From Lama guanicoe (taxonomy: Eukaryota): a stretch of DNA of 64,000 nucleotides. The notes below the pieces were generated by a model. That model was given only the letters and a program-made list of their open reading frames with translations, was not told the DNA's origin and did not search any database. The position numbers were made by a program, and so were the translations under genes. Positions 1 to 64,000 of the stretch are shown here, in pieces. Location of the stretch: positions 5,179,886 through 5,243,885 of the forward strand of contig MU055263.1 of NCBI GenBank assembly GCA_013239625.1, in the 5' to 3' direction. Numbering within the stretch: the stretch's first letter is position 1; every line of letters starts with the position of its first letter.

Positions 1-742
1 AGAACTATGATATTTTTTCCTGCAGGAACGAGAGTAAACAAACACTGTATCAACAAGCCAGCAATAGAATCCACAAGAAGGTGTAAGATCGTTTTTCATC
101 CAAGACAAATGGTTAAGCTGGTTACTTTCTGTAAGTCACCACCAGCTACAGAGTTATTTTATGTAATTCACTGCTGGCTGCTGCCTTGTAATATCTGATG
201 TGGGAATATTAAAAACATCAGTGGGCGAAAGAACGGGAAGACTCCATCTGTATTCAATGAATTCTAATTAAAGAGTAATTACGGCACAACGAGGTAGCTG
301 CCAAATCTATTCCCTCTTCCCAGCCACAAACCACACACACGGAGTTTCCGTCTCCTGCTGTTTGTGTCTGGCTAAACAAGCAGACAGCCAGGCAGAAACC
401 AGACACGCATTTCCTTGCATTTTTCAGGTGACTTGGTTTTAAGCAGCTGCAGCCCCGGAAGACGCGCAGGGGCAGAGGTGGAGCGCGGCTTCTGTTATAA
501 TTGACCTGGGCTTTGAGATTCCTCTGTCATGATGTACCCCAGAATGTTGCATGATGGGAAGGCCCTTGTTACTCCTCCACCAGCCGAGCCAAACGGACAA
601 GATCAAGTAGGTCTGGGACTTGGGAGGAAAGGGGAGAAATATTGACAGATAAGTAAGCACTCCAGGAAATGACAGGCGGCTGGGGCAGTGTCAGGACTCT
701 CAGGATTCAGATGGAATCCTTCAACCTCCTGCTCAAACGCTG

Positions 743-860
743 TAATCTCTCAATGAGATGGAAGAGAGGACGGGAAAAAGCAAATTGCTTAATCAAAGCC
801 CTTAATGTGTGACCAGGATTAGTTACTAAGTCGGAATGACAACCTGCAGGTATAAAAAGG
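743..860 (+). promoter_or_regulatory. Candidate TATA-containing promoter/enhancer with K50-homeodomain-type sites
   Basis: TAATCT 743-748, TAATCA 790-795, GGATTA 816-821, then TATAAAAAGG 851-860 in repeat-free sequence; no downstream gene recognised. Confidence 0.25.
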
Positions 861-1616
861 CTTCCCAGCCTCGCTCGGTACTGATGAAGCCGTATCGGCG
901 GCGCTGAGAACAGGGCCGAGATCACCTGGCTCTTCAGCTGGCCAAGAGACCTTTCTCTGCGAGAAAGCAGGCGTCCGAAACCGTATTCCCGACCACCAGC
1001 AGTTTTTCTTCAGCTGCCAGAGGAGGGGTGACCACCTGCGTTCCTTCCGGTTGGCAGAGTTCCCATCTCACCCGCCTTCTGTAAAAGCTTCTTCATCTAA
1101 TAGAAAACATAGCAGGTGTCAGTAGGTTTCCCCCTGAAGGAGATCGGGCTCTGGCAGAAGTCACTGGCTGCTGAGGGCGCTAGGACATGCCGGTTCCTCT
1201 TCAGAGAGGAAGTGCTAACAGGCTGAAGTGGCCCTTGTCAATTCTCATTAAAAACGGAAAATGACAGCACACTGGACTTCCGCGGCATCCTCGGGGGCAA
1301 CCGTCCAGGTTGTGCTCTGAGTTTTGTATTAACCTTCAGAAATGGTGGGAAGTGAGCGTTAGCTACTCCATCATGTGACAGGGCGTCCTGAGGTCCTGAT
1401 GAGTCATGTGTCCTAGTTACGGAGCGAGAACGTTCTTACTGAAAGCGATGTGTTTCAGCCGCTTTGCCTTCCTTCTCCCCAGCACATTGCCGGTCTTCCA
1501 TGAAATGAGCAAACACAAACGCTTCATCCACTGGAACGGGCTGGTGCTGGCGGAACTCGTGAAGGACCGGTGTTTGGGGCCTGCAGTTGCTCCCCCCACT
1601 GCCTCTCCTCTCGTTT

Positions 1617-2128
1617 TGTATCGGTTATCTATCACTGTATAGCAAATTTACCCCAAAGGTAGCAGCTTCAGATGATAAAAATGTCTTATCTCACGCTTTT
1701 CTGAGACTCGCAGTGGCTCAGCAAGGTGGTCCTGGTTCAGGATCTCTCATGACATTGCAGTCAGGCTGCCAGTTGAGGCCGCACTGGCTGAAAGTTTGGG
1801 GGTTGGGAGATCTGCCTCCAAGAAGGCTCATGTACATGGCTTTTGGCCACAGTGCTCGGTTCCTCACTGACTGTGGCCGGAGTCCTGGTTTCTCACCCCC
1901 GACCTCTTCCCAGGGCTCAGACGTGACGGCTGGCTTCCTCCAGAGCAAGGGGCCTGAGAGAAAGCGCGTGGGAGGGAGCCCGAAGCAGAAACAGCGGTGT
2001 CTTTCACAGCCTCGTCCGGGCAGGGCGTGCTGTCGGCTTGGCACGGACGACGTGGGGGCGACTACACGGGGAGGGACCGCCAGGAGGCGGGCGTCGCCGG
2101 GGCCGCCTTGGGGGCGGGCTCCCCCACT
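1617..2128 (-). mobile_element. MaLR solo LTR (MLT1F/G/H-like)
   Basis: Begins tgtatcggttatctatcactgtatagcaaatttacccc (cf. recalled tgtattagttatctattgctgtgtaacaaattacccc); internal ggctggcttcctccagagcaag; ends with a GC-shifted version of ggccatcttggaggctggctaccaca. Confidence 0.85.
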
Positions 2129-7850: not shown

Positions 7851-8077
7851 ACTAGTCTTCAGGGAAGTAAACAACATTCTCAAGATGGAGGAATAAGGTA
7901 CAGAAGTTGCGATAAATTACCCTTCTCTAGCTCAGAGAGCTCAGCAGTCAGCAGACGGCTGGGAGATGCAGAGGACAAGACTGGCTTCTAGGTGGCATTT
8001 CTGATGCTCAGCGGTCAGGTCAGCCGAGGAGGAGACCAGTAGTTCTCCTGCAGGGAAGAAAGCCAAGCATCAGATTA

Positions 8078-8292
8078 ATAGCTGACTTATCCTAGACCAA
8101 GTGACTGACTGTCCTTGTAACTTCCAATGCCTCATCTGTAAAACGGCCGTAAAGTTAATACTCACCACAGGTGGCCGTTTGAAGTTCAGGAGAGCAGCCT
8201 GTGTGAGGCGCTCAGCCCAGGGCCCGGCACCTGGTCACACTGTCAGCAACGTCACCTGTCGTCGCCGTCGGCGGCGCCTCGTCTGCGTCGTC
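8078..8292 (+). mobile_element. MIR SINE with GC-converted 3' tail
   Basis: cctcatctgtaaaacgg core; gcgctcagcccagggcccggcacctggt for gcacttagcacagtgcctggcacatagt; tail reads gtcgtcgccgtc. Confidence 0.75.
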
Positions 8293-12299: not shown

Positions 12300-13355
12300 G
12301 CTTTAAAGCAGCAAAATGTTTAACACAGTCTGAGGCAGCCCTAAATGAGCATAGAGGAAGTATTTAAGACAATTGTATTGTAAATGGGAGCGAGGTAAAG
12401 GGACACAGAGGGACAAACACTCCACACTTCACTTGAACTGGTAACGTGTGACACCAGCACACTACACAGGTTATGTGTGCATAATGCAGCACCTGGAGCA
12501 ACCGCTAAAAACCCCGTGCAAAGAGACACACTCGGAAACACTAGACGGATCAAGAGGGCATTCTAAAACAAGTTCAAAACTCACCAGGAGACAGGAGAAA
12601 GGAAACAGAAAACAGAAAGAAATGCCAGATCTAAGCCCTAACATATCAATAATTATGTCATATGTATATGGTCTAAATATGCCAATTAAAGGACAAAGAC
12701 TGACAGAGTGGGTTAAAAACCATGACTCAGCCGTATGCTGTCAGCAAGGAACCCACACCGAGGACGAGCAGGCTGAAAGTCAAAGGGTGGGAAGAGATGT
12801 ATCGTGCGGGCGTCCATCAGAGGAAGGCGGAGGTGGCCACAGCAACACCAAAGCTGCCCGTGGAGCGGAGAAGACGACCGGAGGCAGAGAGGGACGTGAT
12901 GTAGCAACAAAGGGCGATCCCCCGAGGAGACACAGACGCCCCGAATCGCCACGTGCAGTGCTGTAAAGCAAGTAGAGAGGGAACTGAGGAAACCGAGGGC
13001 CATATAGGCAGCTCCGCATATGCAGCTGGAGACCAGAGCTCTTCTCCCAGCAAATGATGGAAAACTGGATAGAAAGTCAGCAAGGATATAGAATAAGCCA
13101 ACACAACCCCAGCCAGTGAGACGTAATCTGCCCTCACCCCAAACAGCAGAATAAGCATCCTTTTCAGGCGGCCGTGAAGCACACACCAAGGCAGACAACG
13201 GGATGGGCCTTGAAAATAGTCAACGAATTTAGGAGAACAGGAATTGCAACCCCGCGCACTAAACTGCAGAAGAGTAATAAAGAGACACTAGGAAGACTTC
13301 CAGCCGTTTTAAGTGAAACCACTCGTTTCTAAATAATCCGCAGGCCAAAGGTGAC
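12300..13355 (+). mobile_element. Old L1 (L1M): inter-ORF region and ORF2 endonuclease domain, degenerate
   Basis: ISIIMSYVYGLNMPIKGQRLTEWVKNHDSAVCCQQGTH corresponds to the L1 EN N-terminus (ISIITLNVNGLN.PIKRQRL.EWIKK.DPTICCLQETH); frameshifts and stops follow. Confidence 0.9.
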
Positions 13356-13642
13356 GTTCTTGAGGTTGAATTATTAGAAATTCAACACAGAAGCAGGTAT
13401 GTTTCAAGGAGCTAATGGCTTTCACGAGGATGATGATCAGGTTTTCATACTCACTCAAGGAAATTAAAAAAATAAAAGAAAAGGAACAAAATCTCAGTAA
13501 GGTTTGGAACAAATCTATCTGTGATAGCCAGGGTCTTTTTAAAAACTGCCATTCAATATTTGGCATATGCTGTTTAATGTTTCCTTTAAAATTTATTTCC
13601 TAATAAAATCTTGTAACAAAACCCAGAAACAAACAAACAAAC
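13356..13642 (+). pseudogene. Candidate processed-mRNA 3' fragment (retrocopy) interrupting the L1; parent unidentified
   Basis: Non-L1 AT-rich block; open frame 13378-13467 KFNTEAGMFQGANGFHEDDDQVFILTQGN*, about 135 nt UTR-like sequence, AATAAA 13602-13607, then A-rich (AAAC)n tail. Confidence 0.45.
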
Positions 13643-14754
13643 AATGTAACCTACCACCTAGAAGAATTAGAAGAAGAAGAGCAAACAAAGCCTGGCCAGC
13701 AGAAGGAAATAAATAATAAAGACCAGGGAGAAAATAAACAAAACCGAGACTTTAAGAAATAGACAAAATCAGTCCAACCAAGAGCTGGGTTTTGGAAAGA
13801 GGAAACAGAATTGGCAAACCTCTGGCCAGGCCCACCAAGAAGGAAAGAGGGAGGACCCGAGTGAGCAAAGGAAGGCATGAAAGAGCAGGAAAAGCCAGCA
13901 CCCTGACACGGAGACTCCCGGGAGATGACTGTGCACAACCGTACGTGACACACCGGGCCCCCAGGAGAGAGGAGGGGTCCCTGGAAACACACCGTCTGCC
14001 AAGACGGAACCAGGAAGAAACAGACAAGCTGAGCAGACAGAAAACTGCTGGAAGTGAAGCAGAGTCTGTGGTTTGAAAAACTCCCCGCAAACAGAAGTCC
14101 GGGACCACGTGGCTTCACCGGGGAGCTCTACCAAACAAGTGGGGAACTCACACCAGTCCTTCCCAAACTCCCCCAAAAGACTGAAGAGGAGGGAGCACTC
14201 CCGAAGGCATTCCACGCAGCCACCATCACCCGGATCCCAAAACCAGGCGAAGCACCACCGAAAGGGAAAATGGCAGGCTGATGTCCTTGACGAATATAGA
14301 TGCAAAGATTCTCAGCAACATCTTCACAGCCCGAGTGTCCACTGACGGATGAACAGATGAGCAAAATGTGCTACAGTTGACCCTGAACAACACAGGGTTA
14401 GGGGCACCCACCCCCCTTGAAGGTGAAAAATCCATGTGTAATTTTACGGTCATCCCCCTGTGTTCATGGTTCTACAGCACGTGGTACTGTGGTGTGGATT
14501 TACTGAAAAAAATCCAAGTGTCCAAGGGCCCACTGTATACACATACAATGGAGTGTTACTCAGCTGCAGAGAGGAAGGAAATTCTGACATGTACTACGAG
14601 GCATGAAGGAGCCCTGAGGACACTGCTCAGTGAAACCACAACAGGACAAACACTGTATGATTCCATGTACATGAGGCACCTAGAGCAGCCAAACTCATGG
14701 AGGCGGAAGAGAATGGTGGTTCCTAGGGGCTGGGGTGAAGAGGGGTGTGGAATT
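13643..14754 (+). mobile_element. Old L1 ORF2 continuation, internal deletion near 14330, then 3' region
   Basis: ctagaagaattagaagaagaagagcaaacaaagcc; aagagctgggttttggaaag; SPGPRGFTGELYQT...LPKAFHAATITRIPKPG; gaatatagatgcaaagattctcagcaa; then jump to gagtgtccactgacggatgaacagatgagcaaaatgtg. Confidence 0.9.
14374..14535. mobile_element. Tigger2-family MITE nested in L1
   Basis: TIRs cagttgaccctgaacaac ... gtgtccaagggcccactg with TA on both sides (14372-73, 14536-37); excision restores L1 aaaatgtg.ta/tacacatacaatgg. Confidence 0.85.
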
Positions 14755-15105: not shown

Positions 15106-16185
15106 TTTTTTTTCTATTTTCCCCTTTATTTTGTTAAGTAAAAATTGTATGCATTTAAGGTGTAACACGTGAGGATTTGATATACGCACACGTAGTGAAG
15201 GGATCACAACCATCAAGCTAAGGAACACATCACCTGCTCACGGTCACCACTGTTTGTGTGATGAGAGCACCTGAAGTCCATTCCTTACCAGATGCCCAGT
15301 CTTCAGCACAGAACGGCTAACTGCAGTCACCACGCCGCGCGGTGGGCCTCTGAACTCTGCGCCCTACCTGACTCCGGCTTTGCGCCCTTGGGCTGGCATG
15401 CCCCCGTGTCCCCGCCTCCCCACCCATGGCGACCCCTGTTCTCTCTGCTCCGTGCACTGGACTTTGTCAGAGCCCACCTGTAAGCAGGTCAGCCTTTTCT
15501 CGCACTCAGCACGATGTCCTTCGGTCTTGTCCGCGTTGTCGCAGATGGCAGGGCCTCGCTTTCTGAGGCGGAACAGCACGTCATCGTGCGCACGATTCTC
15601 TGGCCGTTCACCCTCCGCGCACGCTTAGCCTGCTCCCGCGCCGTGGCCGCCGCGAAGGGCGCCGCAGCGCACGCGGGGAGCCGCGGCGTCCGGGAGGCCT
15701 CCTGCGGGTGCAGTCTCGCCCGGGGCCCGGGGACCGCAGCGGAGCCCGGTGTTGGTCTCCGGAGCAGCGTCGCGCGGTTCTCCTCAGGGGCCGCGTGTGC
15801 TGGCTCGCATTCCCGCCAGCGGCGCGCCGGGCTCCCCTCCCTCCGCACCGGCACCGGCGCGCGCTGCCTTCCATGTGCGGTGACAGCCGTCCCGCCAGGC
15901 GTGAGGTCACCTGCGATCTGGTTTGGGTTTGCATTTTCTTGATGATTAACGGTGTTGAGCACTTTTTCACGTACAGCCGTCTTGTCTTAAAAAATGTCTG
16001 TTCAGGCCCCCTGTCCATATTTGAATCCGGCTGTTTGTCCTTTCAGCTGCCGAGTGGCACGAGTTCCTCACCGACTGTGGGTGTCAGCCCCTTGTGAGAG
16101 ACACGGTTTGCAGATATTTTCTTCTGACCTGCAGGTTGCTCTCCACTTTGTCGACGGGCTCCTTTGCTGTGCAGGAGCTTTGTGG
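15106..16185 (-). mobile_element. L1 3' end (L1MA9-like) with strongly GC-converted centre
   Basis: aaaaattgtatgcatttaaggtgtaacacgtg...catcaagctaa matches the L1MA-type 3' UTR; ggtttgcattttcttgatgattaacggtgttgagcactttttca and ggtttgcagatattttctt match the ORF2 3' part. Confidence 0.85.
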
Positions 16186-19864: not shown

Positions 19865-20024
19865 GAACCAGTGAGCTCTTCCCCAGAACAGTGATGGTGC
19901 TCATAAAAACAAGACTTTGGCTAAACTTTCAGGGCAGAGGATAGACTCCCAGGTTAGGGGTCACCTCTGGGCCTCTTGCAGGGCCAAGCGCTGCTCTGAT
20001 GTTAACAGTTTTCTACTTTAACCC

Positions 20025-20185
20025 TGTCAGCTCTGCCAGCTGCCAGCTGTGTGTCCGCAAGCAAGCTGCTTCAGCTTTCTGAGCCGCTGGAAACGGAGGA
20101 ATGGTAGCATCTCCCTGCAGAGGGCCGGGGGCCTGGGCGTGAGGAGCGAGGGCAGGGCGGGCGCCTAGCGCGGGCCGTTAGGCAG
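20025..20185 (+). mobile_element. MIR SINE, GC-shifted 3' half
   Basis: ctctgccagctgccagctgtgtgtccgcaagcaagctgcttcagctttctgagcc. Confidence 0.65.
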
Positions 20186-20941
20186 CGGCAGTGCGTCTGC
20201 TGCGCCCCCGGCGAAGGGAACAGACCTCAGTTGTTGTCTCACCGCAAAGACAAGGACTCAGACCGGAGGTGAACGCGCTATCAGCAGAGGGGCAGCCCAC
20301 CTCCGAGAGCGCAGGCAGGCGGGCCCAAGGGCGGAGGCCGTGGCCTCTGCCGGCCTCGCCTCCCGCGCTCTCCCAACTGACTGACGGCTCTGCCCCCGAG
20401 GCTGAGTCCTGCCCGTCCCCTCTGCGCGCGTCCCTACCCGAGACGCACACGGAGACACGCGCGGACGGGACCGTCTGCGCCCCTCCCTCTGCGCTGCCCC
20501 GGCCTCGCCCCTGCTGCCCCCGGCTTCCTCGCCTTCCTGCTTCTGTTGTTCAGTCTTACGTGATACACTCGGACGTCCTCCTTTTTGTTCAAAACCTTTC
20601 TGCTGTTTAGAAGCGGCACCGTTGCGCCTGTTGTCAAAGCGGGGTTCACTTCTAATTCTCCAGATTTGCTACGTCTACGGTAAAGCCTCAGCCACGTCGG
20701 CGTGGCCTGGAGTTTCCCACTTTAAACCTTTCCTGAGGCTGGAAGTTAATCTTCCCTCAGGCAGTGCCTAAAGGGGATGCGGACCGAGTGATCTGCGGAT
20801 CAATTAAGCAGGGACGGAGCTTCGGGGAAGAGCCGTGTCTGCACACGAGGCCGCGCCACGCGGGCGGAGTGCGGGAGCGGCGCCGCGACGCCAGGGCAGC
20901 GGGCGACCCGGCCGCCGAGAAGGGCCGGCAGAGCGCGGAGG

Positions 20942-21396
20942 GCGGAGGCCGGCAGCCACGGGGCCCGCGGACACACACACAGGGGCTTGTGGTTTCTCCT
21001 GAGAAAGCAGAGTACCTGGCAGCGCCGAGCTCCCGTCCCCACGCGGCAACAGCGGAAGCGGGAGGCCCTGTCGCCGGGGGCGCGAGCGCTCAGCGCACCG
21101 CCGCTCCGGCCACGCGCGCAGGTGACGGGCGCGTGCGGGCCGCGCCTCCCCTGCGCCTCGCGCCCCTGAGCGGAGGCCGGCAACCAGCGGGCCCGCGGAC
21201 ACACACACAGGGGCTTGTGGTTTCTCCTGAGAAAGCAGAGTACCTGGCAGCGCCGAGCTCCCGTCCCCACGCGGCAACAGCGGAAGCGGGAGGCCCTGTC
21301 GCCGGGGGCGCGAGCGCTCAGCGCACCGCCGCTCCGGCCACGCGCGCAGGTGACGGGCGCGTGCGGGCCGCGCCTCCCCTGCGCCTCGCGCCCCTG
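20942..21396 (+). repeat. 228-bp tandem duplication (2 copies) of a GC-converted MER102-like hAT element
   Basis: 20942-21168 repeated at 21170-21396; ttctcctgagaaagcagagtacctggcagcgccgagctcccgtccccacgcggcaaca aligns to recalled MER102 ttctcttgaaaaatcagaagatctggcaacactgggcccacattcccacatggcaaca; ends in cccctg. The duplication is certain, the family call less so. Confidence 0.8.
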
Positions 21397-21459
21397 CTTC
21401 GCGGAGCCTTCGGAGATGCGCCTCTCTCTCGCTCTCTCCCCACCACCTCTCTCTTCGAA

Positions 21460-21556
21460 CACATACACGTATACATTTATGTGTACGTGTGATAACATTT
21501 ATGTGTGCGTGAATGGTATGTAATATGGATGTGTATGTGTATAAATATATATATGC
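21460..21556. repeat. Degenerate (TA/TG/CA) low-complexity tract
   Basis: acatacacgtatacatttatgtgtacgtgtg...gtatgtgtataaatatatatatg. Confidence 0.7.
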
Positions 21557-23080: not shown

Positions 23081-24469
23081 GACAAAGCCTTGCTTACAGC
23101 ATGTACTTACAGAGGAGTTATCCTTCCAGAACCCGACTGGACAGACGTGTCTCAGATTAAAAATGCTGCTGGCGAAAAGTGACAGATGCATTAACTGGGA
23201 GTTAAGCCTCCCCAACGCCTCCCTTTCTCTTTTCTGGGTCTTGAAAATGACTCATCGGCTCAGGATTGAAAGCAAGAACCAGAATATTCTTTATGGTCAA
23301 TGGAGAGGCTCTTCCTTAAAAACAGGGCAGCTACTCCAAATGTATGGATAACCAGCTGTGGCTTGAAGCATGTTTAACCACGTTACGCCTTAGCCAATGG
23401 CACGCTGTCACTGCTGTGTGCGTCTGTGTCTGGGCGCGAGAGGGACGGCTACAGATGCAGGAGTCCTTAATTTTACCATCTTAGAGGAGTCGTCATCATA
23501 TTTCTGAATAAGAGTTGTGTTTAGGCATCTCAGTGGTAAAAAAAAAAATTAAACATTTGTTAATCTAAAAATCCTTCATCTTTACAGTGTTGAGTTAATT
23601 TACAACTCTTTCATGAGATTCATTTATGAAATTCAAACCCATGCCCTCATTTACTGACAGGCTTAAATGAACTGTCAGGGACAGAATGGTTTCTTGGTGC
23701 AATAGATTTGAAAATGAAAGAATTTTTTTACAGTATTGAATTAATTATTAATTTATTGACTATTCCAAGCTATGGAAGGAAGGAAAACCTATCTGTAGCC
23801 AAGAAATGTTTCTTTACTCAGAGTTTATTTGCCATGATACATCAAGTGGTCAATATGACGTGAACATCTTTAACATATTTATGTCACTTGTGTATTACTT
23901 GTTACACATCAGAAATAAATGCTTGAGGAAATAAGACTTATCATGAAGAACAACTGTTTACAACTGACCATAGGGGTAAAATTTTCCTTTAACTAGTGAT
24001 TTTTTTCTTATTAAAACATTCATAAACTCAGGGAAGCTTCAATATTTCCTACATTCCTAAGCCCAGATCTGTGAGTATGTTGCTGGTATGGGATAAGAAT
24101 TTGCATTTAAGCTATTTTGAAAAGGATTTACTAAGTTGTTTTATAGTATAAATAGATTACTAGGCCGTAAGTTACTATGTTCTTAGAAAGCCGATGTAAA
24201 GGATGATGGTGCTAATTACATTTAGATCAACAATTAATATGGTTATTATAAATAAGTCTTATCCATTTATGAACATAGAACACAGAATTTACATCAGCTC
24301 ATTCATTCATCCAGGTATTCATTTTTTCATTCATTTATTCAGTAGAAATGGGTCAGAAACATGCCTAGGAACAAACTGACAATTGTGCTAAAATGTCATT
24401 GTTAGCTAGACCATAACAAACTTTTTTTTCATAAATATTTGCATGGCACCTGACTTAATGGTGGGTCAA

Positions 24470-24660
24470 AACAATGTTTCCACAATGGGCTGTGGATCTC
24501 CTGCAACAGGATTATCTGAGATTCCTGTTAAAATGCAGACTCCCGGGCCATCTCAGCTCTGTCTGTAAGATAGCTCTGTGTGCAGTCCGTAGAAGAAGTT
24601 TACAGCTTAATGGATTCTCCAGATGATTCTTAAAGATCTCAAGTTTGCACCTTGTCATTC
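24470..24660. mobile_element. MER5A-like hAT MITE
   Basis: ctgttaaaatgcagactcccgggccatctcag...ctccagatgattctta...aagtttg. Confidence 0.65.
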
Positions 24661-24724
24661 TAGATACCCTTCTTCTTCAGGCCATCCGTTTCAACCCTCT
24701 TTGCCACATGCACATATATAACCA

Positions 24725-25935
24725 CAAGTGAACTTCAAGAGGTGAAAACTACCATGTCTGGGGTGAAAAACACACTAGATGAAATTAACAAATTACACAT
24801 TATTTTTTAAAACTAGTGAACTTGAAGACACGCTAATAGTAACTCTCCAAAGTGAAACATTCAAAGAAAAAAGTTTTAAAAAAGAAATCATAAGCTGTGG
24901 GACGACGGCAAGCAGCCTCATGTACGTGTAACTGGAGTTCCCACCGGGAGGAGGGAGCAACGGCAAAAGCATGGTCCACAAAAGGACCAACTGATGCACG
25001 GGAAGTGAGAATTACAAGCTTCTGCTCTTTGAGAGGTCCTGCTGAAAAAATGGAAAGACAAGCCCCAGACTGGGAGAAAATGTCTGCAAGTCATATGTTT
25101 GATAGAAGACATATCTAGACTATATAATATAACTCTTAACTTAATAAGAAAACACACAAATAGCAAAAGATTTGAACAGACAACGCCACTTCTTTGAAGA
25201 CACATGGTTTGCAAATTGAGCACATGAAAGGATGCACAATCGTGTAGTCACTAGGAAAGTGCAACTTAAAACCACAAAGAGATACAACTACACATCTATT
25301 AGGATGACTGAAAATAAAAAGACTGACCGTACCAAGTGCTGACAAGGAATGTGGAGGAACCGGAAACTTCTTCATACATTGATGGTGGGAATATAAAATG
25401 GTGCAGCCATTTTGGAAAACAGCTTGGCAGTTTCTTAACAAGTTAAACATACACCTACCGCGTGATCCAGCCATTGTGCTCCTAGATATGTGCCCAGGAG
25501 AAATAAAATCCTATGACCACACAAATACTTGTGCACAAATGTATACAGCAGTTTCATTCTCAATAGCCAAAAAGCTGGTACATCCCAAATGTCCATCAAC
25601 AGGTGAATGGGTAAATGAATGATAGTATATGCATATAATGGAACACTGCCCAGTGGTAAAGAGGAATGAACTATTGATACACACAGCATGTGTGAATCTG
25701 CACATAATTATACGGAGTGAAAGAAGGCAGACAAAAAAGGGTACATTCTGTAGGATTCCATTTATATAAAATTCTACAAAATGTGAACTAATGCACAGAG
25801 ACAGAAAGCAGGTCAGTTGTTGCCTGGGGGATCAGGGTGAGGTGTACTCATATGTCAGAACATCAAATTATACACTTTAACTATATGAAGTTTATTGTAC
25901 TGTTTATCGATGATAACTCAATAAAGCTGTTAAAA
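24725..25935 (+). mobile_element. L1 (L1MC/MD-like): ORF1 fragment joined to ORF2 3' end and 3' UTR
   Basis: aaaaacacactagatgaaattaac...tagtgaacttgaagaca (ORF1); aaagacaagccccagactgggagaaaat, aaaatggtgcagccattttggaaaacag, cccaaatgtccatcaacaggtgaatgg; ends ctcaataaagctgttaaaaa. Confidence 0.9.
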
Positions 25936-26654
25936 ATGACTTGAAGATGGGAAGAGGGCAGTGGTGAATCAGGCTAAGGGCTGCCTCTTCAGATCCCCTG
26001 GGACCTGAACCTAAAATTTAGGAGGGGAACACCTGGTTGCTCACACCCAGTGGTGCTTGACTTAAAACCAGCAATAAAGGACTGGGGCTGAAATACACTC
26101 GTCCGCTGTTAATGTCACTGCTATCCAAACATTGGGCACCTGATTTTTGTTACACTAAAAAGTTTTAAAGATGTTCCGCTTCCGTTGTGCTAAAGAAATA
26201 ACTAGAGGGCCCCCACCTCTCTCAGTCCGGGTGTCTTCCAGCCAAGAGCACGTTGTGACAGTATGTGACGCCATCTTTACTTGGGAAACTCGGGGAAATC
26301 TATACGCAATTCTCTCAAACATCTTCAGAGCCTTTAAGCCTGGTCGCGCTCTGAAAATGACCGAGGTTGCGATGGTCACATTAGAACAAGCTATTCTGCT
26401 GTTTTAAACGTGACAACACCCACAGGGATTGCCCTGGACCTCCAGTCTCATGCACGTGCCCTGAATGGGGGCGAGAAGCCTCTCTCAGCGTCGGCTTCCA
26501 CACCTTCTGGCTCTGCCTGCCTCCTTAAAGGGACCTCCCACTGAAGTCAGCTTAAAAAGGACTCAGTTGTCCTCCTGACCCACCTCTATCTGCCATCGCC
26601 CAGATCTGGCTGTCAGAACTGAATTACCCTGTGATGACGATGCTTGTGGATTCT

Positions 26655-34741: not shown

Positions 34742-35119
34742 ACTGTGTTCATCTGAGAGTAGAAACAGTTGCCTTATTGCCTCCGCTCACTGCTCCGTTC
34801 TCCTGACGAGCGTTCGGCGTGCCGGCGTGCGAGGAGCGTGCCGGGGCTGGGAGCACGCTGATGAGCAAAGGGGGGTGGTCTCTGCACCCGGCCTCCCAGT
34901 CTGCTGTTCTTGCTAGAAATAGGTCTCTGCTTTATGTCTGAGCGTCCTCTGAGTCAGTGAGACTTTCCCTATCAGGGCTAAACCAGGGAGGCGGGGCTTC
35001 CTGCTCACGGCAGCAAGGAAGCCCTCTTGTTAGATGTCTGAGTCCCGTCCGCACGGGTGCTTTTAGCTCTCACGGCAGCCCCGCAGCCACGTGGGGCACG
35101 GGAGCCGGGGTGAGGGTCC

Positions 35120-35330
35120 AGGACAGGGACAGCCTGGGAGTCCGCGTGCCTGGGTTTCACCCTAATTCTTACCTCTGGCTAGTTCTACACCTTATTCGCA
35201 CCTGTTCCGTTGTCCCCACCTGGAAAAGGAGGACGTGCCGGCCTCACCGCTGTCGGGGTTAGAGCGATGTGTAACCGGCGACGAGCCGCCCAGCCTCAGC
35301 CTGCTCCGTAGAGAGGGTCTGCGCGCTTCC
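35120..35330 (+). mobile_element. MIR SINE, GC-shifted
   Basis: ggagtccgcgtgcctgggtttcaccctaattcttacctct...ccccacctggaaaaggaggac. Confidence 0.55.
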
Positions 35331-42503: not shown

Positions 42504-42572
42504 TGGTGGTGACGGCGCTGGCAGTGGTGACGGCGTTGACGGTGGTGATGGCGTTGGCAGTGGTGATGCTGC
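42504..42572. repeat. Degenerate 18-bp tandem repeat (about 4 units)
   Basis: tggcagtggtgacggcgt / tgacggtggtgatggcgt / tggcagtggtgatgctgc. Confidence 0.8.
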
Positions 42573-45617: not shown

Positions 45618-46289
45618 AGGCCTGGCGCTGGCTGCTGGGACGGGGTGAGGCCGTGGGAGAGCTCGAGACACCCTCCCGGGAAAGAGAGGAAGGGCGGGGA
45701 GACCCTTCTGGGGGAAAGGGGGCGAGAGGGGCAGCGTGCCAGCGCGGGGCCCAGCGTTGGTAATGCAGGGGCCCCGTTCACAGTCCCACAGCCGCGGAAG
45801 GACGCGGGGGAAGTGAGGACAGAGGGCCGTGGAGCTTAAGCAAGAGGAGGACTTCGTCGCCTCTGATGTTCCTGTGCTCTTTCTTTTGAAGTTTTAAAGG
45901 TGAACCTTCAAGTTTTGAAAAATGGCTTTGTTTCTTTTTTTCCTTTTGGGCTTCCTTCCAAACAGTAAATGTTGGCCCCAAATGGAGCACTTTTCTCCTT
46001 CCCGAGCTCCTGCAGAAAGTAGACAGTGATGGGCACCTCCATGTCAATGCTGCGTCCCATGTATATTTCACAAGCCTTGAAGAGATCTGACGACCCTAGT
46101 GTTTTTATTCAGCAAACTCAACTCTTAAAAGGATGTGAAGCGACTTGGAGCAAATTCAGGTACCAGAGAGGCAAAAACCGTTAATGTGGAGTAAAAGACA
46201 CGTGGAGCGAAGAGGGACTGACTCGGAGACGCCTTTGCCAGTTAGCTTGCTCCGTGCCCCAGACTCTGGAGACATTCTCATACATGCGT

Positions 46290-46870
46290 ATTTATTCTTG
46301 TATGTGTACCGTCCACACCCTGGAGAAATCCTTGCACGTGTGTATGTATATAAAGAACTATTCAAAAGTGTTTGTGGTACCATTGTTTGAGACAGGAAAA
46401 GATCAGAAATAACCTAAATGTTCCTCACTGAGTGAAGGAATAAATAAAATATGGCACATTCATATGACAAGTACTATACAGCCACCAAAGGGACGAGCTG
46501 AATCTCCATGCACCGACGTGGTCAGGTCTCGAGAAACATTAAATGCAAAAAGCACAACTGTGTGTACCGTCTATCATCTGTTACATTTTAAATCACACAC
46601 TTTTTTTTTTTTACAAAAGCACATGTTTGTGTGCAGAGGCGTATAAAATGGACTGCAGAAAACGCAGCAGGCTCTTCTCGGGTTGGCCGTGGGGACACTG
46701 GAGGGGAGAGGGACTGGGTGCGGGAGCAGGATGTTAGCTAAGTGGTAAAGCTGTACTTCCTTAAGGACTGCTGAAAACAAACGTGGGGAAATGCTAACAG
46801 AGGTTAGTTGTGAAATTGGGGATATAGGCGCCTATTATGTCCTTCTTTGAAGTTTATTAAAAGAAAAAGC
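46290..46870 (+). mobile_element. Ancient L1 (L1ME-like) 3' fragment
   Basis: cattgtttgagacaggaaaagatcagaaataacctaaatgttc...aaataaaatatggcacattcatatga. Confidence 0.7.
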
Positions 46871-51058: not shown

Positions 51059-51190
51059 NNNNNNNNNNNNNNNNNNNNNNNNNNNNNNNNNNNNNNNNNN
51101 NNNNNNNNNNNNNNNNNNNNNNNNNNNNNNNNNNNNNNNNNNNNNNNNNNNNNNNNNNNNNNNNNNNNNNNNNNNNNNNNNNNNNNNNNN
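51059..51190. other. Assembly gap (132 N)
   Basis: Run of N. Confidence 1.
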
Positions 51191-53771
51191 GGAGCTTCGT
51201 GGGGTTGAGCAGAGCATATTTTATATTCTTCTCTTGGAACTGCCTCTTGTTGGTAGTAAATGGCTGTCGGCGCTGCTGTCCCGCAGCAGACAAGTCTTAG
51301 GAGCACAGATAATTCAGTTTTCATCCACTGCGAGGTCTCCCGCTGCCCATGTTCTTCCCTGACGCGGACAAGGCTGTACCTGCCCTCCTGGCCTGAGACC
51401 TGAGGAGCCCTGGTGTGGCTGGCCCCCTGCCAGAGCCACGCAGAAAAGCCGCCCACCAGTGCAGCCAGTGAGCACGAACCACCTGCTGGTCGTTTCCGCT
51501 GGAGCTTCCTCCTGAGCTCATTTCCCCCCAGGAGCAAAGATCCTGAGGGCCTGGCTCAGCAGTGGCTCCTGAAAGACAGTCCGGCTTGGTTTCACTCTGT
51601 CAGGGTTTCCATGACGATGGAGAATGTGGTAGCAAAGGTGGCGCCACGATTAAACTGCAGGGGAATGATCGCTCCCCTTCTGGTGGGGCGGCAGGTACGG
51701 CTCCTGCTCTTCTTTGAAAGCAGTTGGGCAGGTTATTAAGGACCATTAAGATGCTCATGCCATCACCTATGAAAACTCATTCTAAGGTTATTATTCAACA
51801 GTGAAGACACGTGCTACATGCTGCTGCTTGTGAGAACAGTAATGTGGAGGTTACTAAATTTTGACACACATGGCCGTGTAGAAACATGGAGCGTGCACCC
51901 CACACGATGTTAAAAGCCCGAAACTTAGAGAACAGCGTGTGTTCTACGAAGAGAACATCGATCTCTGCAGGGACAGAGATGATAAACGTGAAAGAAACGG
52001 ACGTGAGGGCCGTGGGATTAAGCGCGCTTTTCCTGCCTTCAGATTGGCCCTCAGTGTTGTTTCTGTATCTTTAACAATCATGAAGAGACTGAGAATGCCC
52101 CGTCGGTGTCGGCGTGTCTCCTGGTTCCGGGTCTGGATAACTCAACCGGCTCCAATTCTTTCGGGCGAGACGGGTGACGGAGTTTTTCTTTTTCATGGTT
52201 TTTAAACGGCCGGGCCTGGGCTCTTTAATCTCACGGTCGGCTTCTTTGCCTGGATGCGTTGCTTCAACCATTTTCATGATCCTCCACATGGTTTTAAAAA
52301 GCTGAGTCATTTCCACGGTCCCTCTCCTCCACTGTCCTGGGCTGCTTAATTAAGTGAGTTTTCCAAGAGCCTCCGTCCTGCACTTCCCAAGGCAGCATGC
52401 GCAGACGGGAGCCGGGGTCGTGGGAAGCTGCCAGCCAAGAATTAAAACCACAACACACGGCAAACCACTCAAGCAAGACGCCGTCCATCAAGCGCCATCA
52501 CTGGACAACATAGAATGTGAGCTGCGTACCTCCAGAACAGCCAATGCTGTGCGTGGCCGCGGCACCGGTGGTCGGAAGGATGAATAAACGCAATTAAGAC
52601 ACTTGGCCAAGAGGTAAACAAGGCACGCGGCTCACAAAAGGCCAGCGACTTGTGTTTATTTTAATATTGCTTTACGGCAACACCTAATAAAGAGAGCATG
52701 ATTGCAAGAAAGAAATTTTCAGTCATAATGAATGCTGCAACTTAACCTCCCAAGTTTAAATAGGCTACAACATCTTGGGGAAAATGCAAGAAAGATTATT
52801 TGATAAAGGTGACGGTTTTTCACACCTGAAAATGATGTTTTTCTTCCAGCCTATCTTGATCAACAGTCGGCAGCAACACATTGCAGATATAATCTCAGGA
52901 CCTTGTGGCATGTGCTTGTCCCTACATGCATAACTTACTCTGGACAGAGGATCACGGAGACTTTGAACACAATTTCCCACGCGACAGGAGATTAACTAGG
53001 CCGCGCTGGAAGGAGGCAGGAAGCGGCCGGGCCTCGGGAGAAGCAGACAGCGAGCCTCAGCTCTGGAGCAGACAGACAGCGGGACGCACACTTCCTGACA
53101 TGCTGCCTCCAGGAGCTCGGCTCTTGGGAGCTCTGGGGAGGGCCCACGGCGGGGTGAGCAGCAGCAGCAGGAGGGCCTTGGCTGGGGAGGCTCGGAGCGG
53201 AGGGAGTCGCCTCTCCTCGTCTGGGCCCGGCTCTCGCCTCTCCCTCCGTGGGGGGCCCCCTTCTCGGGGCGTCCTCTGCCTCCGCATAGCTTGCCAGCCA
53301 CCCCACTGGAACCTGCTCTTGAGACTGCGCTCCTGCCCCCTGCAGGGAGGCGAGGACCCAGTGCCCTACCCTTCGGTCTGTATGTGAATAGCAAGCTTGC
53401 TTCCTACGCTGCGTTTGCCAGTGAAGGAGCAGCGGACACCGACAAACTGGAGGAGGAGACTCCGGGTGCAGCAGAGCCTCCCAGCATCCCGGCTCCATTC
53501 CTCCCCGCAGCCTGCAGCGCGGCCTCGGACCTGCTGGGCCTCGTCCCCTGACTCTTAAAAACAAATCAGGAAGTACCTCAGTCACAGGACTATTGTGACG
53601 ATCAAATGAGTTCATCCTTGGGAAGCTGGAGAGCAGCGCCCGACACCACGGAAACGGTTTGTGTTAACAATGGTTACCATTACCATCATTCCATATAAAA
53701 AATTTCAGAAACAAAGAAGTCACAAGAAAACATCATCTATCAAAAACTATACACGGGGGTGGGGGGAAGGT

Positions 53772-53881
53772 GGGGGGTGGCTCAGTGGCAGAGTGTCTGC
53801 CTAGCAGCATGAGCCCCTGGGTTCAATCCCCAGGGCCTCCATGAAATAAATACATTAACCTAATACCCCCCAAAAATAAAA
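53772..53881 (+). mobile_element. Camelid-type tRNA-derived SINE (vic-1-like)
   Basis: Pol III A box tggctcagtgg, B box ggttcaatccc, followed by cctcca...aaataaatacattaacctaataccccccaaaaataaaa tail. Confidence 0.85.
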
Positions 53882-54959: not shown

Positions 54960-55430
54960 TCAGAGTGTCCGCTCTGGGAGAAACCAGCTTCTTTGTAAGA
55001 ACCTGACTGCCCGAAGCCTCCACGCCCCGTGAGGAACCCATGTTCCCATGTGGAGACAGCTGCCCGGCCAGCCCAGCTGCTGTGTCCATCCCAAATGACG
55101 TGTGGGAGGATGTAGATGTCGACTCAGCCGCCTCCTCAGATGACAGCAGCCCCAGCGCAGCCCTGTGAGCACCCCCCCTGCGGCGGGCGCAGTGCCGGGG
55201 GAGAGTGCCTGCTTAGCACGCACGCGGTCCTGGCTTCAACCCCCCGCGCCTCCACTTAACATAAGTAAATAGATAAACCTAATTACCCCCAAAAAATGAA
55301 AAAAGAAAAGAAAAGAAAACCAGCCAGCTGAGCCTTAACCAGCTCCCAGAGCCACGAGAGACAACACTTCAGCGGTGGTTTCAAGTGCCTGAGACTGAGG
55401 TGCTGCCACAGCCGCTGACAACCAGACACC
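54960..55430 (+). mobile_element. MaLR LTR (MLT1-like) interrupted by a SINE
   Basis: gtgaggaacccatgttcccatgtggaga...cagatgacagcagccccagc; resumes cagccagctgagcc...gtggtttcaagtgcctgagact...gacaaccagacac. Confidence 0.6.
55180..55320 (+). mobile_element. Second camelid-type tRNA SINE with GC-converted head
   Basis: agagtgcctgcttagcacgcacgcggtcctggcttcaacccccc...aaatagataaacctaattacccccaaaaaa plus (AAAAG)n tail; same tail signature as the 53772 copy. Confidence 0.85.
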
Positions 55431-56337: not shown

Positions 56338-56458
56338 GGGAAGAAGGAGATGGAGGAGGAGGAAGAAGAGGAAGAGGAAGAGGAAAGGGGAAGGGGGAAG
56401 GGAAGAGGGGGAGCGGGAGGAGGGAGGGGGAGGAGGGGGACTGGGAGGAGATGATGAT
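56338..56458. repeat. Polypurine (GAG/GAA/GGGGAA) low-complexity tract
   Basis: gaagaaggagatggaggaggaggaagaagaggaagaggaagaggaaaggggaagggggaaggg. Confidence 0.9.
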
Positions 56459-60702: not shown

Positions 60703-60789
60703 GGCCGTAATTCCTTAAAAAAAAAAAGAGAGAAAGAGAAAAAAATTAAAAAACTGAAATAAGATAAAAATAAAAGGCCATAATTCCTT
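60703..60789 (+). mobile_element. TSD-flanked A-rich insertion (solo poly(A) or fully truncated retroelement)
   Basis: ggccgtaattcctt (60703-16) and ggccataattcctt (60776-89) bracket 59 bp of A-rich sequence. Confidence 0.7.
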
Positions 60790-62544
60790 TCCCTCAGATG
60801 GGGCATGAGATGACCCCCCAACATTTTGCAATACATGGTTTTCCATTTGGCGAAGAAATAAGAGGAATTAACATTACGTAGACTCCTAGCTGGACCGTTT
60901 ACAGGCACCCCGAGCAGAAGAGTGGTGCCTCAGAAAGGAACTCGTGTCGGTGCAGAACCTCGGGCCAGTTGCTTGCTCGCTGTCCTCAGTCCCTCTCCTA
61001 GAAGGGAAGACTGAGAGCATGTTCCCGCAGCGTTGTCGTGAGAGTTCAACGCGTTCATATGAGAACACTGCTGAGAACAGAGCCTGGCGCGTGGTAAGTG
61101 CCCCGGAGAGGGTTCAAGAAAGGATTTCTGTTGTTGCTGTCGCTGTTGGATCTTTGCAGCAAGCTTTCCGCCATCCTTCCGTGTATGATGGTGGGGGAGG
61201 GGCGGGGGAGGTTAAACATAATGGTCTGGGGAGTGGAAGGTGGGGGGTCTTCCAAGTATGTGCTGGTGGCAGAGCAGCAAAGAACCCCACGGGCGTCCCT
61301 CGTTTGCAAAGGCTGCTGTGGCTCCTGCTCTGGTCTCTCCTTTCCAGCCCCTGTGACCCACGTTCTCTCTGCGTCTGCATCTGGATCTTTCACGGGAACA
61401 AAGTAGGATCCTTTCAGGAGCTCTTAGAGGCTGGTGCAGACGTGAGGATGAGTAAGGCCAGGAGCACCGAGGCAGGAACGCACGTGGCCCAGAGAAGGGA
61501 AGACGGCCGTGCGGAGCGCGGGGTCCCGGGCGCAGCTCACAGCACTCTGCGACCCTGTGAACGAGGCCACGGGGCAGGAGAGGACGGAGTTCTGTTTGGA
61601 TCGCGAGTCCACTCGCTCGGCTTTCTTAGCTCTGACTCATGAAGGGACCCAGTCAAAAGTGTTTTGTGCATCCTGTGAGACGCAGAGGCTCACTGCGCTC
61701 GCCAGGCCTGCCACTGCCTGCTGCTTTAAAAATGCCCAGAGCCCTGATCTGGGAGGAAAGCAAGCGGTCGTTTGTGCAAAAATGCTAAAGCCATTTGGAA
61801 GCAAATGCAAACAATGGAGAAAAAGTACGAGCTGGTGGATGTCAGTCTGTGCTTTTCTCAAGGAGGCCCGTCTGCCGGTGACGCCGTCAAGGAGCTGGGT
61901 CATCTCTCAACAGTCATTTTCTCGGAGGGCACAGAATTCTTGCGCAGATCTCATCCCCCTTCGGTTGCACATGTGCTGCAAACAGCCAAGCCGGCGAGGA
62001 CTTGGGCAGCCCACGGGCCGTCATCAGCTCCGTCTGAAGAGTTTATAACCCTGACGGGATCAGAGGTCCCTCCGGGGACTCCCCCTCGTGAACCCAGTGG
62101 AGGGACAGCCTTTCTCTCACCCCTGATTCCTCACCTGACAGTTCTCCTACTCGCCAGTTAACAATTACGGTCTGAAAGCAAGTCGGTTCCAAAGAGGACT
62201 TTACGAAGTTCTTAGCAACTAAGAAGCTGATGGAAGCCAAGCGCTCTGTGCAGAAACTGAACTGTGAACTGTCTGAAGACAGGGCTGACTCATGTACGTT
62301 AGTGCATCGTAACACGAATCATCAGGACATTAATTCCTGTGTTCCTGTGTATCTCCCACGAGCTACAACTACGTTGTGGGGAGCAAAAGCGGGCGGTCAC
62401 TGTGAAAGGTGCCATTAATCCTGGCCGCAGCCCCTCCCCTAAGAACCTGCCCCGGCGCCCCTGGAAGGGCTGGCCCTTCTCACGCTTCAGGTCTGTGATT
62501 CGGCTCAGAGTTCACGTTGGGTGTTTTTTATCTGTTTAATTCTC

Positions 62545-62660
62545 TCTAACCGCTGACTGAGCCCTCTTTGAAGAAAGGGACCATGTCTTATTCAGGCTCT
62601 CCCCAGCATTGAGCTTGCGTGTGGCACATAGAAGGGGCTAGAGAATGCTGGTCTCATGGA
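62545..62660 (+). mobile_element. L2 LINE 3' end
   Basis: ctgactgagccctctttgaagaaagggaccatgtcttattca...ccccagca...gtggcacatagaagggg. Confidence 0.7.
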
Positions 62661-64000
62661 CACACGGGTAATCTTGGCGTGAGTCCACAGACGCCAGCCT
62701 CGTGAAGGGCTTCCCCGCCCTTCTCCCAGGCTCTGGGGAACACACACTCATCAGCCCCCAAGCAGCACGCTCGGGCCCGTTTTATACCCAGAGTTCACAG
62801 AATTGTGCCAGGAAGCTTCAGGATGAAAAATTCTGCATTTCCTATTGAATTGTGATGCGTGGTAGATGCTGCCGCCACCCCTCGTCCTGGACGTCGCCAC
62901 AGCCGGGCGGAGCCTGACCGCACCTTGCCCAAGACGCTTGTGCCCTCTTGCTTCCTGCCCTGGGCCGCTCTGCCACCAGGGCCTGGACACCGGCCGGCCC
63001 TGCTCAGCCACCCGGGCTGTGCTGGAGAGGACAGCGCTGCTGGGGGCAACTCCTGACCGCGGCGTGTGGAGACCTGCAGTGAACGCGGCTCACCTGCAGC
63101 TCTCAGGCTCTCGCACGAGGTTTCCTAGGCTGGCCCTGAGGGTGGGGGCCCAGCTTCCCACAGGGCCCGCCAGCCCAACAACAACCCCCGGACTGGCCTT
63201 CCTCCCACGCTCCCAACTCCTGTCTCTGGCACTGCTTCTCTGAAGAGGCCGTCTGCAACAGCTTTTGTCGCAGGCCCTCTGTTTGGGGAAATTCCAGCAA
63301 AGTCCCAGCCATGACGTCACTGAAGCGCCCACAGCACCTGCTTCAGTGAGGACTTGGACAGGTTTGGGATCGATCGTGGTGACAAATAAAATGACAAAAT
63401 AGAATTAACATTTTCATAAAATACAAGGAGTGTATAAAGATTCCATAATTAAGTGTATAAAATTAACCATTCCACAAGTTTTTAAGGGTCCTTTTAGTAA
63501 CTCATTTTCTTCCTTTGGACTGACATAAAACATCAGGCCAGCGAAACGTTTTCCCAAGCACGTCCTTAAAGAAGTGAACGCGTAGCCATTTCCCAAGTAG
63601 CGGTGAACTTGAGCTGCTGCTTTAGCCCACGAGACAGAGACCGCCTTGTCCAGGCTAAAGTGCGACAGAAACGAGCAACATGCAAACACCTGGCGAAGCC
63701 CTCGCCCCTCACGTGGCAGCCCAGAGGCCACCCTGTCGCTGTGCTCGTGCTGGCAAGGGCGCCGTGGCGGAGTCGGTCCCCGAGCCTCTCGTGCCGCGCA
63801 GACGTGGCGGGGGCGCAGGCCGGTCGGAGAGGACCGGGAGCGGGGGAGCCTGACTGTCTTCGTGTTTAAGGCTCTGCTCTGAGCCCTTCCTCTCTGGAAA
63901 AGCCACTCGGTCCTCTTTACCACCAGTCGGATCAGAATAACGTTCAGTCCTGAACTTCTGAAGTTGGAGAGCAGTTCAGCCAGGCGACCAGTGGGCCTAG

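What the first reader, a model, noticed from the sequence alone, without database searches (positions are those of the whole stretch)
1..64000. Window-wide archipelago of GC-conversion peaks alternating with unconverted AT-rich blocks
Seen: short CpG-rich patches recur at about 2.0-2.15, 4.5-5.3, 8.2-8.4, 8.9-9.4, 12.75-12.96, 13.8-14.3, 15.3-15.9, 20.1-21.4, 35.1-35.6, 38.05-38.15, 45.35-45.6, 48.95-49.15, 55.15-55.25 and 63.7-63.85 kb. Where a repeat gives an ancestral reference (MLT1, MIR, L1, MER102, SINE) the shift is A/T to G/C, across unrelated families. None of the patches is tied to a recognisable gene start. Established: stable hotspots producing GC peaks at CpG islands are known in PRDM9-lacking canids, and subtelomeric regions show elevated gBGC. 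Inference: a dense, persistent and possibly PRDM9-independent hotspot landscape in this lineage, with possible feedback (conversion creates CpG islands, which attract further recombination). This is the best candidate for an undescribed system here, and it is an evolutionary process rather than a gene cluster.
Basis: partly seen in the sequence, partly recalled or inferred. Interest (0 to 1): 0.7.

Follow-up and report, generated by a model that had tools for sequence, protein, structure and literature searches.

The report
Recombination scars that enriched mammalian GC
This non-coding mammalian DNA carries many short patches where A and T were replaced by G and C inside old jumping-gene remnants, a strong local example of the well-known GC bias of meiotic recombination rather than a new system.

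Summary
The patchiness is real and, where testable, the GC is derived. The 14 patches average 67% GC and CpG o/e 0.86, against 51% and 0.53 outside, far beyond Markov nulls. An L1 remnant at 15.45-16.16 kb differs from its AT-rich in-window paralogue by 207 G/C-for-A/T against 40 reverse differences. The shift is strand-symmetric, includes transversions and is mostly outside CpG. [quoted passage not shown] Only 7 of 14 patches had a reference; 4 were clear. Simulations favour long-lived or re-used hot sites over a GC-biased background. PRDM9-independence, telomere distance, methylation and the camelid identity could not be tested. Clustered subtelomeric gBGC tracts, gBGC-made CpG islands and PRDM9-independent hotspots in most placentals are published. 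Verdict: a strong new instance of a known process.

The parts
1..64000 (.). Non-coding mammalian region with a GC-biased background: GC 52.5%, CpG o/e 0.58. Window-wide MIR-based apparent GC* 0.54, matching a true value near 0.65 in simulation.
   Evidence: no Pfam hit at cut-off
15450..16160 (-). L1 remnant (ORF2 C-terminal region by paralogy) with the strongest conversion; core 15500-15900 is 74% GC with CpG o/e 1.1
   Evidence: 207 vs 40 against the paralogue at 25.04-25.80 kb; polarised W>S 79 of 130 and S>W 17 of 71; type spectrum
25040..25800 (+). AT-rich L1 ORF2 C-terminal remnant: cold block and internal reference (GC 0.38, CpG o/e 0.26)
   Evidence: PDB ORF2p match E 1e-19 for 25383-25619
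12637..12762 (+). L1 ORF2 endonuclease start, unconverted (GC about 0.40)
12750..12960 (+). The same L1 ORF2, converted patch (GC 0.62, CpG o/e 0.87)
   Evidence: (E 0.009)
13330..13800 (+). A-rich cold stretch between the two converted L1 patches (GC 0.34)
   Evidence: its alignment to 22.2-22.5 kb did not beat shuffles
13800..14345 (+). L1 ORF2 linker and RT start, GC-shifted but not CpG-rich
   Evidence: 44 vs 14 against the paralogue at 22.44-22.62 kb
46262..46620 (+). Third L1 3' remnant, used to polarise; symmetric against the 25 kb copy (52 vs 51)
20015..20205 (+). MIR-like copy (family name recalled) converted towards GC at the start of the largest patch
8060..8290 (+). MIR-like copy whose 3' tail reads as GTC-type repeats where other copies have ATT-type repeats
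   Evidence: alignment; in-patch 9 W>S vs 5 S>W
35105..35335 (+). MIR-like copy in the 35 kb patch, weak shift (30 W>S vs 24 S>W)
20060..21476 (.). Largest CpG-island-like block; the only region passing the 1.5x GC-peak rule; origin of most of it untested
20942..21397 (+). Two head-to-tail 228-bp copies, 4 differences in 228 columns; recent duplication or assembly overlap
53765..53880 (+). tRNA-derived SINE, less converted copy (0 CpG)
55170..55300 (+). Paralogous SINE copy with 9 CpG in its tRNA-like part; shift 12 vs 6, not significant
23600..26000 (.). Longest AT-rich block (30-42% GC per 200 bp), partly L1

Best explanation
This is the fossil record of GC-biased gene conversion in a region of long-term high meiotic recombination, most likely chromosome-distal. 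Repair of A/T:G/C mismatches in recombination heteroduplex favours G/C, so A/T-to-G/C variants fix more often on both strands. A moderate bias acted over most of the window. Some sub-kilobase sites were hit for a long time or repeatedly, turning 38%-GC L1 sequence into 74%-GC, CpG-island-like sequence, while neighbouring blocks escaped. Peaks with CpG o/e near 1 (10 of 31 at >=0.8) are recent, ongoing or unmethylated; peaks below 0.6 (10 of 31) may be older and decaying. SHOWN: derived, strand-symmetric W-to-S excess in L1 and MIR remnants, and sub-kb heterogeneity inside single elements. INFERRED: recombination as the cause, distal position, persistence, the age series. UNTESTED: what positions the hotspots.
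For: L1 paralogues: 207 vs 40, W-W 19, S-S 22; 109-214 vs 24-47 over 5 other alignment settings. Polarised W>S 79 of 130 (30 transversions), S>W 17 of 71; outside CpG-prone sites 14 of 21 vs 3 of 17. A>G 35%, T>C 43%, A>C 12%, T>G 14%, A>T 4%, T>A 6%; 125 of 207 differences lie outside CpG. Against PDB L1 ORF2p, counted by eye: patch segments GARP/FYMINK 60/29 vs reference 36/58 (p 1e-4); AT segments 21/37 vs 21/35. MIR apparent GC* 0.54, where a true 0.35 gives 0.34-0.40 in simulation; the human average is 0.37 (PMC2346554). Loss of methylation alone leaves GC at 0.37 and one short hotspot at 0.40; sustained B near 8 gives GC 0.75 and o/e 0.97 even when methylated. Window-scale contrast needs episodes with B x T of about 0.4-0.8; many weak independent episodes give SD 0.04-0.06. 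Peak widths of 150-720 bp resemble published tract sizes (median 276-1008 bp).
Against: No orthologue, polymorphism, recombination or methylation data were available. References are paralogues of different L1 subfamilies at about 57-62% identity, so counts include subfamily divergence and alignment noise. MIR whole-copy GC* does not track flank GC (rho 0.01) or patch proximity. The site-level MIR contrast (0.67 vs 0.52, p 0.003) is partly circular, because patches were picked by GC. The simulations are toy models: those matching the SD give lag-1 autocorrelation about 0.75 against 0.40 observed, and CpG o/e 0.41-0.45 against 0.58. So repeat ancestry, constraint or hypomethylation also contribute. 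No telomeric repeat pair occurs in the window.
Confidence: 0.78

Rival explanations
1. One reading: the peaks are stable PRDM9-independent hotspots at hypomethylated CpG-rich sites, self-reinforcing because conversion creates CpG islands that attract breaks. This is a sub-case of the best explanation.
For: The contrast needs long-lived or re-used sites. No k-mer is shared among 31 peaks above shuffles. Default hotspots are active in 39 of 52 mammals and track hypomethylation (PMC11161765). Camelids are absent from that study's 27 trios.
Against: CpG o/e near 1 does not require hypomethylation under strong gBGC. One peak per 2 kb is far denser than published hotspot spacing (50-140 kb in primates and mice, about 300 kb in dogs and birds; PMC5698624), so most cannot be simultaneously active hotspots. 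Camelid PRDM9 N-terminal domains and catalytic tyrosines are listed intact. The same authors warn that gBGC estimates are unsuitable for a single locus. Motif absence is also expected after PRDM9 allele turnover.
Confidence: 0.3
2. A palimpsest of successive PRDM9-directed hotspots in a distal, high-recombination region of a lineage with large ancestral population size, with no special positioning system. This is the other sub-case of the best explanation.
For: Unimodal GC and random-like spacing. CpG o/e among peaks spreads from 0.28 to 1.08, as expected for different ages. W-to-S clusters are common in Bovidae and Muridae (bioRxiv 2021.05.05.442789). Primate tracts cluster near telomeres but rarely overlap between species.
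Against: Independent weak episodes smooth the landscape in simulation. Converting about 60% of A/T sites at one place needs cumulative B x T near 1.5.
Confidence: 0.4
3. Ordinary CpG islands: germline hypomethylation or selection for regulatory function preserved ancestral GC and CpG.
For: Plausible for the non-repeat part of 20.1-21.4 kb and for the 7 patches without a tested reference. The background CpG o/e of 0.53 is high.
Against: It cannot explain L1 or MIR patches, whose ancestors were AT-rich. Removing CpG decay leaves GC at 0.37, and most W-to-S changes lie outside CpG.
Confidence: 0.1
4. Locally GC-biased mutation or repair, or editing of retroelement RNA/DNA before insertion.
For: A mutation bias cannot be told from a fixation bias without polymorphism data.
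Against: Editing predicts one change on one strand, but A>G, T>C, A>C and T>G are all raised. No mechanism for sub-kb GC-ward mutation was found in the passages read.
Confidence: 0.06
5. A mosaic of repeat families with different native GC, or an assembly artefact.
For: AT-rich blocks are partly L1. The 228-bp duplication and three N gaps suggest a draft assembly.
Against: GC swings 0.36, 0.62, 0.34, 0.55 inside one colinear L1 ORF2 remnant. Differences are 68-78% transitions, which sequencing error or misalignment would not give.
Confidence: 0.06

Closest known systems
gBGC tracts / biased clustered substitutions (PMC3744432, passages read)
   Same: Clusters of W-to-S changes a few hundred bp to about 1 kb long, grouped in regions, on both strands, in neutral DNA.
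   Different: Those were called on short primate branches from orthologues and confirmed by allele frequencies. Here the signal is cumulative since repeat insertion, larger per site, and from paralogues only.
BGC-class CpG islands (Cohen et al. classification as described in PMC4121359, passages; original not read)
   Same: CpG-island-like composition generated by conversion rather than by promoter hypomethylation.
   Different: Defined in primates from phylogenetic substitution models; the methylation state here is unknown.
Canid GC peaks at stable hotspots (Axelsson et al. definition as quoted in PMC4053742, passages; original not read)
   Same: Short, sharp GC elevations overlapping CpG islands.
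   Different: Only one region meets the 1.5x rule, partly because the background is already 50-54% GC. Canids lack PRDM9; no loss is indicated for camelids.
PRDM9-independent default hotspots in placental mammals (PMC11161765, parts 1-4 of 8 and Dataset S3 read)
   Same: Narrow GC* peaks, slow turnover, coexistence with a complete PRDM9; offered there as an explanation for CpG-island GC richness.
   Different: Those are orthologues of mouse knockout hotspots at promoter-like hypomethylated sites. The clearest patches here lie inside retrotransposon remnants, and camelids were not sampled.
Runaway GC regions of gerbils (PMC7403616, passages)
   Same: Extreme lineage-specific AT-to-GC accumulation attributed to very high regional recombination.
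   Different: Megabase-scale gene clusters measured on coding sequence, against sub-kb patches in non-coding DNA here.

Membership tests
gBGC tract cluster | Excess of W-to-S over S-to-W changes, with W-W and S-S low | tested here: met
   L1; MIR; paralogue-based
gBGC tract cluster | Strand-symmetric, transitions and transversions, independent of CpG | tested here: met
gBGC tract cluster | Local clustering at 0.1-1 kb scale | tested here: met
   not detected among whole MIR copies
gBGC tract cluster | Fixation bias in polymorphism (derived G/C at higher frequency) | not testable with these tools
   no population data
gBGC tract cluster | Association with recombination rate or chromosome ends | not testable with these tools
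   no map or scaffold position; no telomeric array in the window
Canid-type GC peak | 500-bp GC at least 1.5x the 10-kb background | tested here: not met
   met only near 21.1 kb (1.54, includes the duplication); the next best are 1.36 and 1.33
Canid-type GC peak | PRDM9 pseudogenised in the lineage | tested here: inconclusive
   literature table lists camelid KRAB-SSXRD-SET with Y/Y/Y; zinc fingers not evaluated; lineage identity itself only recalled
PRDM9-independent default hotspot | Germline hypomethylation or promoter-like chromatin | not testable with these tools
   CpG o/e cannot decide it
PRDM9-independent default hotspot | Positional stability over long times or across species | tested here: inconclusive
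   toy simulations favour long-lived or re-used sites; no orthologues
PRDM9-independent default hotspot | Breaks occur without PRDM9 binding or H3K36me3 | not testable with these tools
   no shared k-mer among peaks is uninformative
BGC-class CpG island | CpG-island composition arising from an AT-rich ancestor | tested here: met
   15.3-16.1 kb passes island thresholds and derives from AT-rich L1
BGC-class CpG island | Normal CpG deamination rate (not hypodeaminated) | not testable with these tools
   needs branch-specific CpG rates or a methylome

The most novel reading that the evidence does not exclude
This lineage (possibly camelids, absent from the 52-mammal survey) uses stable default hotspots at canid-like strength despite a domain-complete PRDM9. 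In distal regions these hotspots are born inside methylated retrotransposon remnants: conversion builds a CpG island, the island loses germline methylation and keeps attracting breaks. The L1 at 15.45-16.16 kb would be such a self-made island, with its ancestral state still readable.
Probability: 0.12. Interest if true: 0.62.

Novelty: new member of a known kind. Interest (0 to 1): 0.3.

Why it matters
As it stands it is a clean, extreme teaching example: about 60% of ancestral A/T sites in part of an L1 became G/C, producing a CpG island with no promoter needed. It warns that CpG-island calls and accelerated regions in such DNA can be recombination by-products. If the novel case held, repeat-born islands with readable ancestors would make the open question of cause and effect between CpG islands, hypomethylation and default hotspots directly testable, in a clade that survey did not sample.

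Tried and rejected
Rfam at gathering thresholds: 0 hits. At E<=1: a sub-threshold tRNA match for the SINE and a CA/TG-repeat match to mir-3149, taken as chance. Pfam: four weak hits below cut-off (IL6Ra-bind, CPG4, TMEM95, TARP) among 355 ORF queries, rejected. Two protein searches for a storable L1 ORF2 reference returned no scored hit, so protein polarisation was counted by eye from PDB alignments. Two frames of the converted 15.6-16.0 kb L1 found no PDB match; its L1 identity rests on the DNA paralogue (score 696 vs shuffle max 400). The 15 kb vs 46 kb and 13.4 kb vs 22.2 kb pairwise alignments did not exceed shuffle maxima and are not used as stand-alone evidence. An all-against-all tile search gave 45 non-self hits against 14 in a reversed control and no new usable pairs. 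No second MLT-like copy was found. Periodicity and a shared motif were rejected. Paper searches for PRDM9 plus camel, camel/alpaca with GC, subtelomere and recombination and gBGC plus Camelus listed no camelid hotspot or gBGC study by title and abstract start; the library lacks most subscription papers. SINEBase names vic-1 as a simple camel SINE but gave no sequence in the passages read, so camelid identity stayed unchecked. PMC6636035, PMC8336415 and PMC11323403 were read as passages only and add general context.


Full report
Scope and sources. The window is mammalian non-coding DNA with three N gaps. No Pfam family reached its cut-off among 258 ORFs of at least 85 codons and 97 shorter ORFs in L1-like regions; shorter exons elsewhere were not scanned. 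Rfam gave no hit at gathering thresholds. L1 ORF2 remnants were confirmed against named PDB chains in 5 of 7 queries (misses). The names MIR, MLT1, MER102, the L1 subfamilies and the camelid origin of the SINE are recalled, not tool-derived. ARAGORN and Rfam show only that the SINE at 53.77 kb is tRNA-like.

Observation. The 14 patches pool to 67% GC and CpG o/e 0.86, against 51% and 0.53 outside. Thirteen rank between the 88th and 99.8th percentile for CpG; 13.8-14.3 kb ranks 43rd. Window heterogeneity (SD 0.093 per 200 bp) is more than twice that of Markov nulls. An unbiased caller finds 31 segments of at least 70% GC in 150 bp, 16 of them unlisted, against 0.17 expected. So the patches are real and more numerous than listed. 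They are the upper tail of a unimodal distribution, with autocorrelation gone by 1.5 kb and random-like spacing. Only the 21.1 kb region meets the canid GC-peak rule quoted in PMC4053742, and it contains a near-perfect 228-bp duplication.

Direction of change. The best test is internal. The L1 remnant at 15.45-16.16 kb (minus strand) aligns to an AT-rich paralogue at 25.04-25.80 kb (score 696, shuffle max 400). Of 670 columns, 207 have G/C in the first and A/T in the second, 40 the reverse, 19 W-W and 22 S-S. The asymmetry held in 5 of 5 other alignment settings. A control pair (46 kb vs 25 kb) is symmetric at 52 vs 51. Polarising with other copies, and dropping columns without two agreeing copies, gives W>S at 79 of 130 A/T sites and S>W at 17 of 71 G/C sites; outside CpG-prone context it is 14 of 21 vs 3 of 17. 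A>G, T>C, A>C and T>G are all raised while A>T and T>A stay at 4-6%, and 125 of 207 differences lie outside CpG. This excludes strand-specific editing and mere CpG retention. In the 12.6-14.3 kb L1, composition swings 0.36, 0.62, 0.49, 0.34, 0.55 along one ORF2. Residue classes counted by eye against PDB ORF2p shift in the patch segments (GARP/FYMINK 60/29 vs 36/58, p 1e-4) but not in the AT segments (21/37 vs 21/35). The 14.05-14.22 kb piece gives 44 vs 14 against its paralogue.

Results against a sharp archipelago. Twenty-two MIR-like copies (profile seeded from 18 hand-picked copies; 0 hits in the reversed window) give apparent GC* 0.54 overall. Simulation of the same estimator returns 0.34-0.40 for a true 0.35 and 0.53-0.55 for a true 0.65, so the whole window is GC-biased relative to the human average of 0.37 (PMC2346554). 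But 7 copies near patches and 15 far from them do not differ, and copy GC* does not follow flank GC. With tails included, in-patch sites give 0.67 vs 0.52 (p 0.003), which is partly circular. The SINE pair gives 12 vs 6 (p 0.24). In sum, 7 of 14 patches had a reference: 4 clear (12.75, 13.8, 15.3, start of 20.1 kb) and 3 weak (8.2, 35.1, 55.15 kb).

Mechanism. From established knowledge, gBGC raises W-to-S and lowers S-to-W fixation where recombination is frequent (PMC11161765). Forward simulation from the 25 kb copy shows that loss of methylation alone leaves GC at 0.37 and a single short strong hotspot at 0.40. Sustained B near 8 over 0.2 neutral substitutions per site, or a recent long burst, reproduces GC 0.72-0.75 and CpG o/e 0.97, with or without methylation; an old burst followed by methylated decay gives o/e 0.33-0.70. 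The strongest peaks are therefore recent, ongoing or unmethylated, and high CpG does not prove hypomethylation. At window scale, thousands of weak independent episodes give a smooth landscape (SD about 0.04-0.06); the observed contrast needs episodes with B x T of about 0.4-0.8. These models fit autocorrelation and total CpG poorly, so persistence is favoured, not shown. One peak per 2 kb is far denser than published hotspot spacing (PMC5698624), which suggests a record of different times; CpG o/e among the 31 peaks runs from 0.28 to 1.08.

PRDM9. Nothing in the window tests it. No k-mer is shared among peaks beyond shuffles, which both models predict. The supplement of PMC5519329 lists three Camelus species and Vicugna with KRAB-SSXRD-SET and intact catalytic tyrosines, the same notation as human PRDM9; camelids do not appear in its zinc-finger table. 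The 52-mammal survey has no camelid among its 27 trios.

Comparison with what is known. gBGC tracts of similar length cluster near chromosome ends in primates (PMC3744432). GC* rises towards telomeres (PMC2346554). Conversion-made CpG islands are a named class (PMC4121359). Clustered W-to-S substitutions are strong in Bovidae and Muridae (bioRxiv 2021.05.05.442789). Default hotspots are active in 39 of 52 mammals and were proposed to explain CpG-island GC richness (PMC11161765). Positive feedback between GC and recombination is discussed at isochore scale (PMC10463633). All were read as passages except PMC11161765 (parts 1-4 of 8 and Dataset S3); bioRxiv supplements were closed. The window works like a gBGC tract cluster and meets the sequence-testable criteria. 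It fails the canid GC-peak rule at all but one site, and its membership among default hotspots is untested.

Verdict. gBGC as cause: 0.78. It is a strong new instance of a known evolutionary process, not an undescribed system; interest 0.3. The boldest reading not excluded, repeat-born self-reinforcing default hotspots in a lineage that keeps PRDM9, has probability about 0.12 and would deserve about 0.62.

Noticed in passing
window 20942-21397: Two tandem 228-bp copies with 4 differences, three of them in the first 20 bases; a recent duplication or a contig-overlap artefact. It inflates the largest CpG patch by 33 CpGs.
   Followed up: partly
window 14755-14892, 19579-19789, 51059-51190: Three N gaps of 138, 211 and 132 bases, pointing to a draft scaffolded assembly.
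   Followed up: no
window 20560-20800: A less GC-rich, apparently non-repeat stretch between the two halves of the largest patch; could be a conserved regulatory element, which would make this block an enhancer-linked island. By eye only.
   Followed up: no
window 6230-6850, 23500-24450, 55600-56200, 58300-59000: AT-rich blocks not recognised as L1; they may be constrained non-coding elements rather than recombination-cold neutral DNA.
   Followed up: no
window 42506-42566: An 18-bp period tandem repeat (3.4 copies) at a MIR-like tail position with GTG/GAC units; may be a GC-converted ATT-type tail, like 8260-8290.
   Followed up: no
window 14373-14535: The 12.3-14.75 kb L1 appears interrupted by a short insertion and jumps from the RT start to the 3' end, implying a large internal deletion. 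By eye.
   Followed up: partly
window 41285-41365: A short T-rich L1-like 3' end inserted inside a MIR-like copy (name recalled).
   Followed up: no
window 10223-10454 and 27347-27600: Self-complementary stretches found in the tile search, possibly DNA-transposon remnants with inverted ends.
   Followed up: no
window 30427-30479, 38316-38443, 56352-56450, 32040-32135: TG microsatellite, TTCC and GGA purine-pyrimidine tracts, and a CA/TG palindrome-like repeat giving a spurious mir-3149 match.
   Followed up: partly
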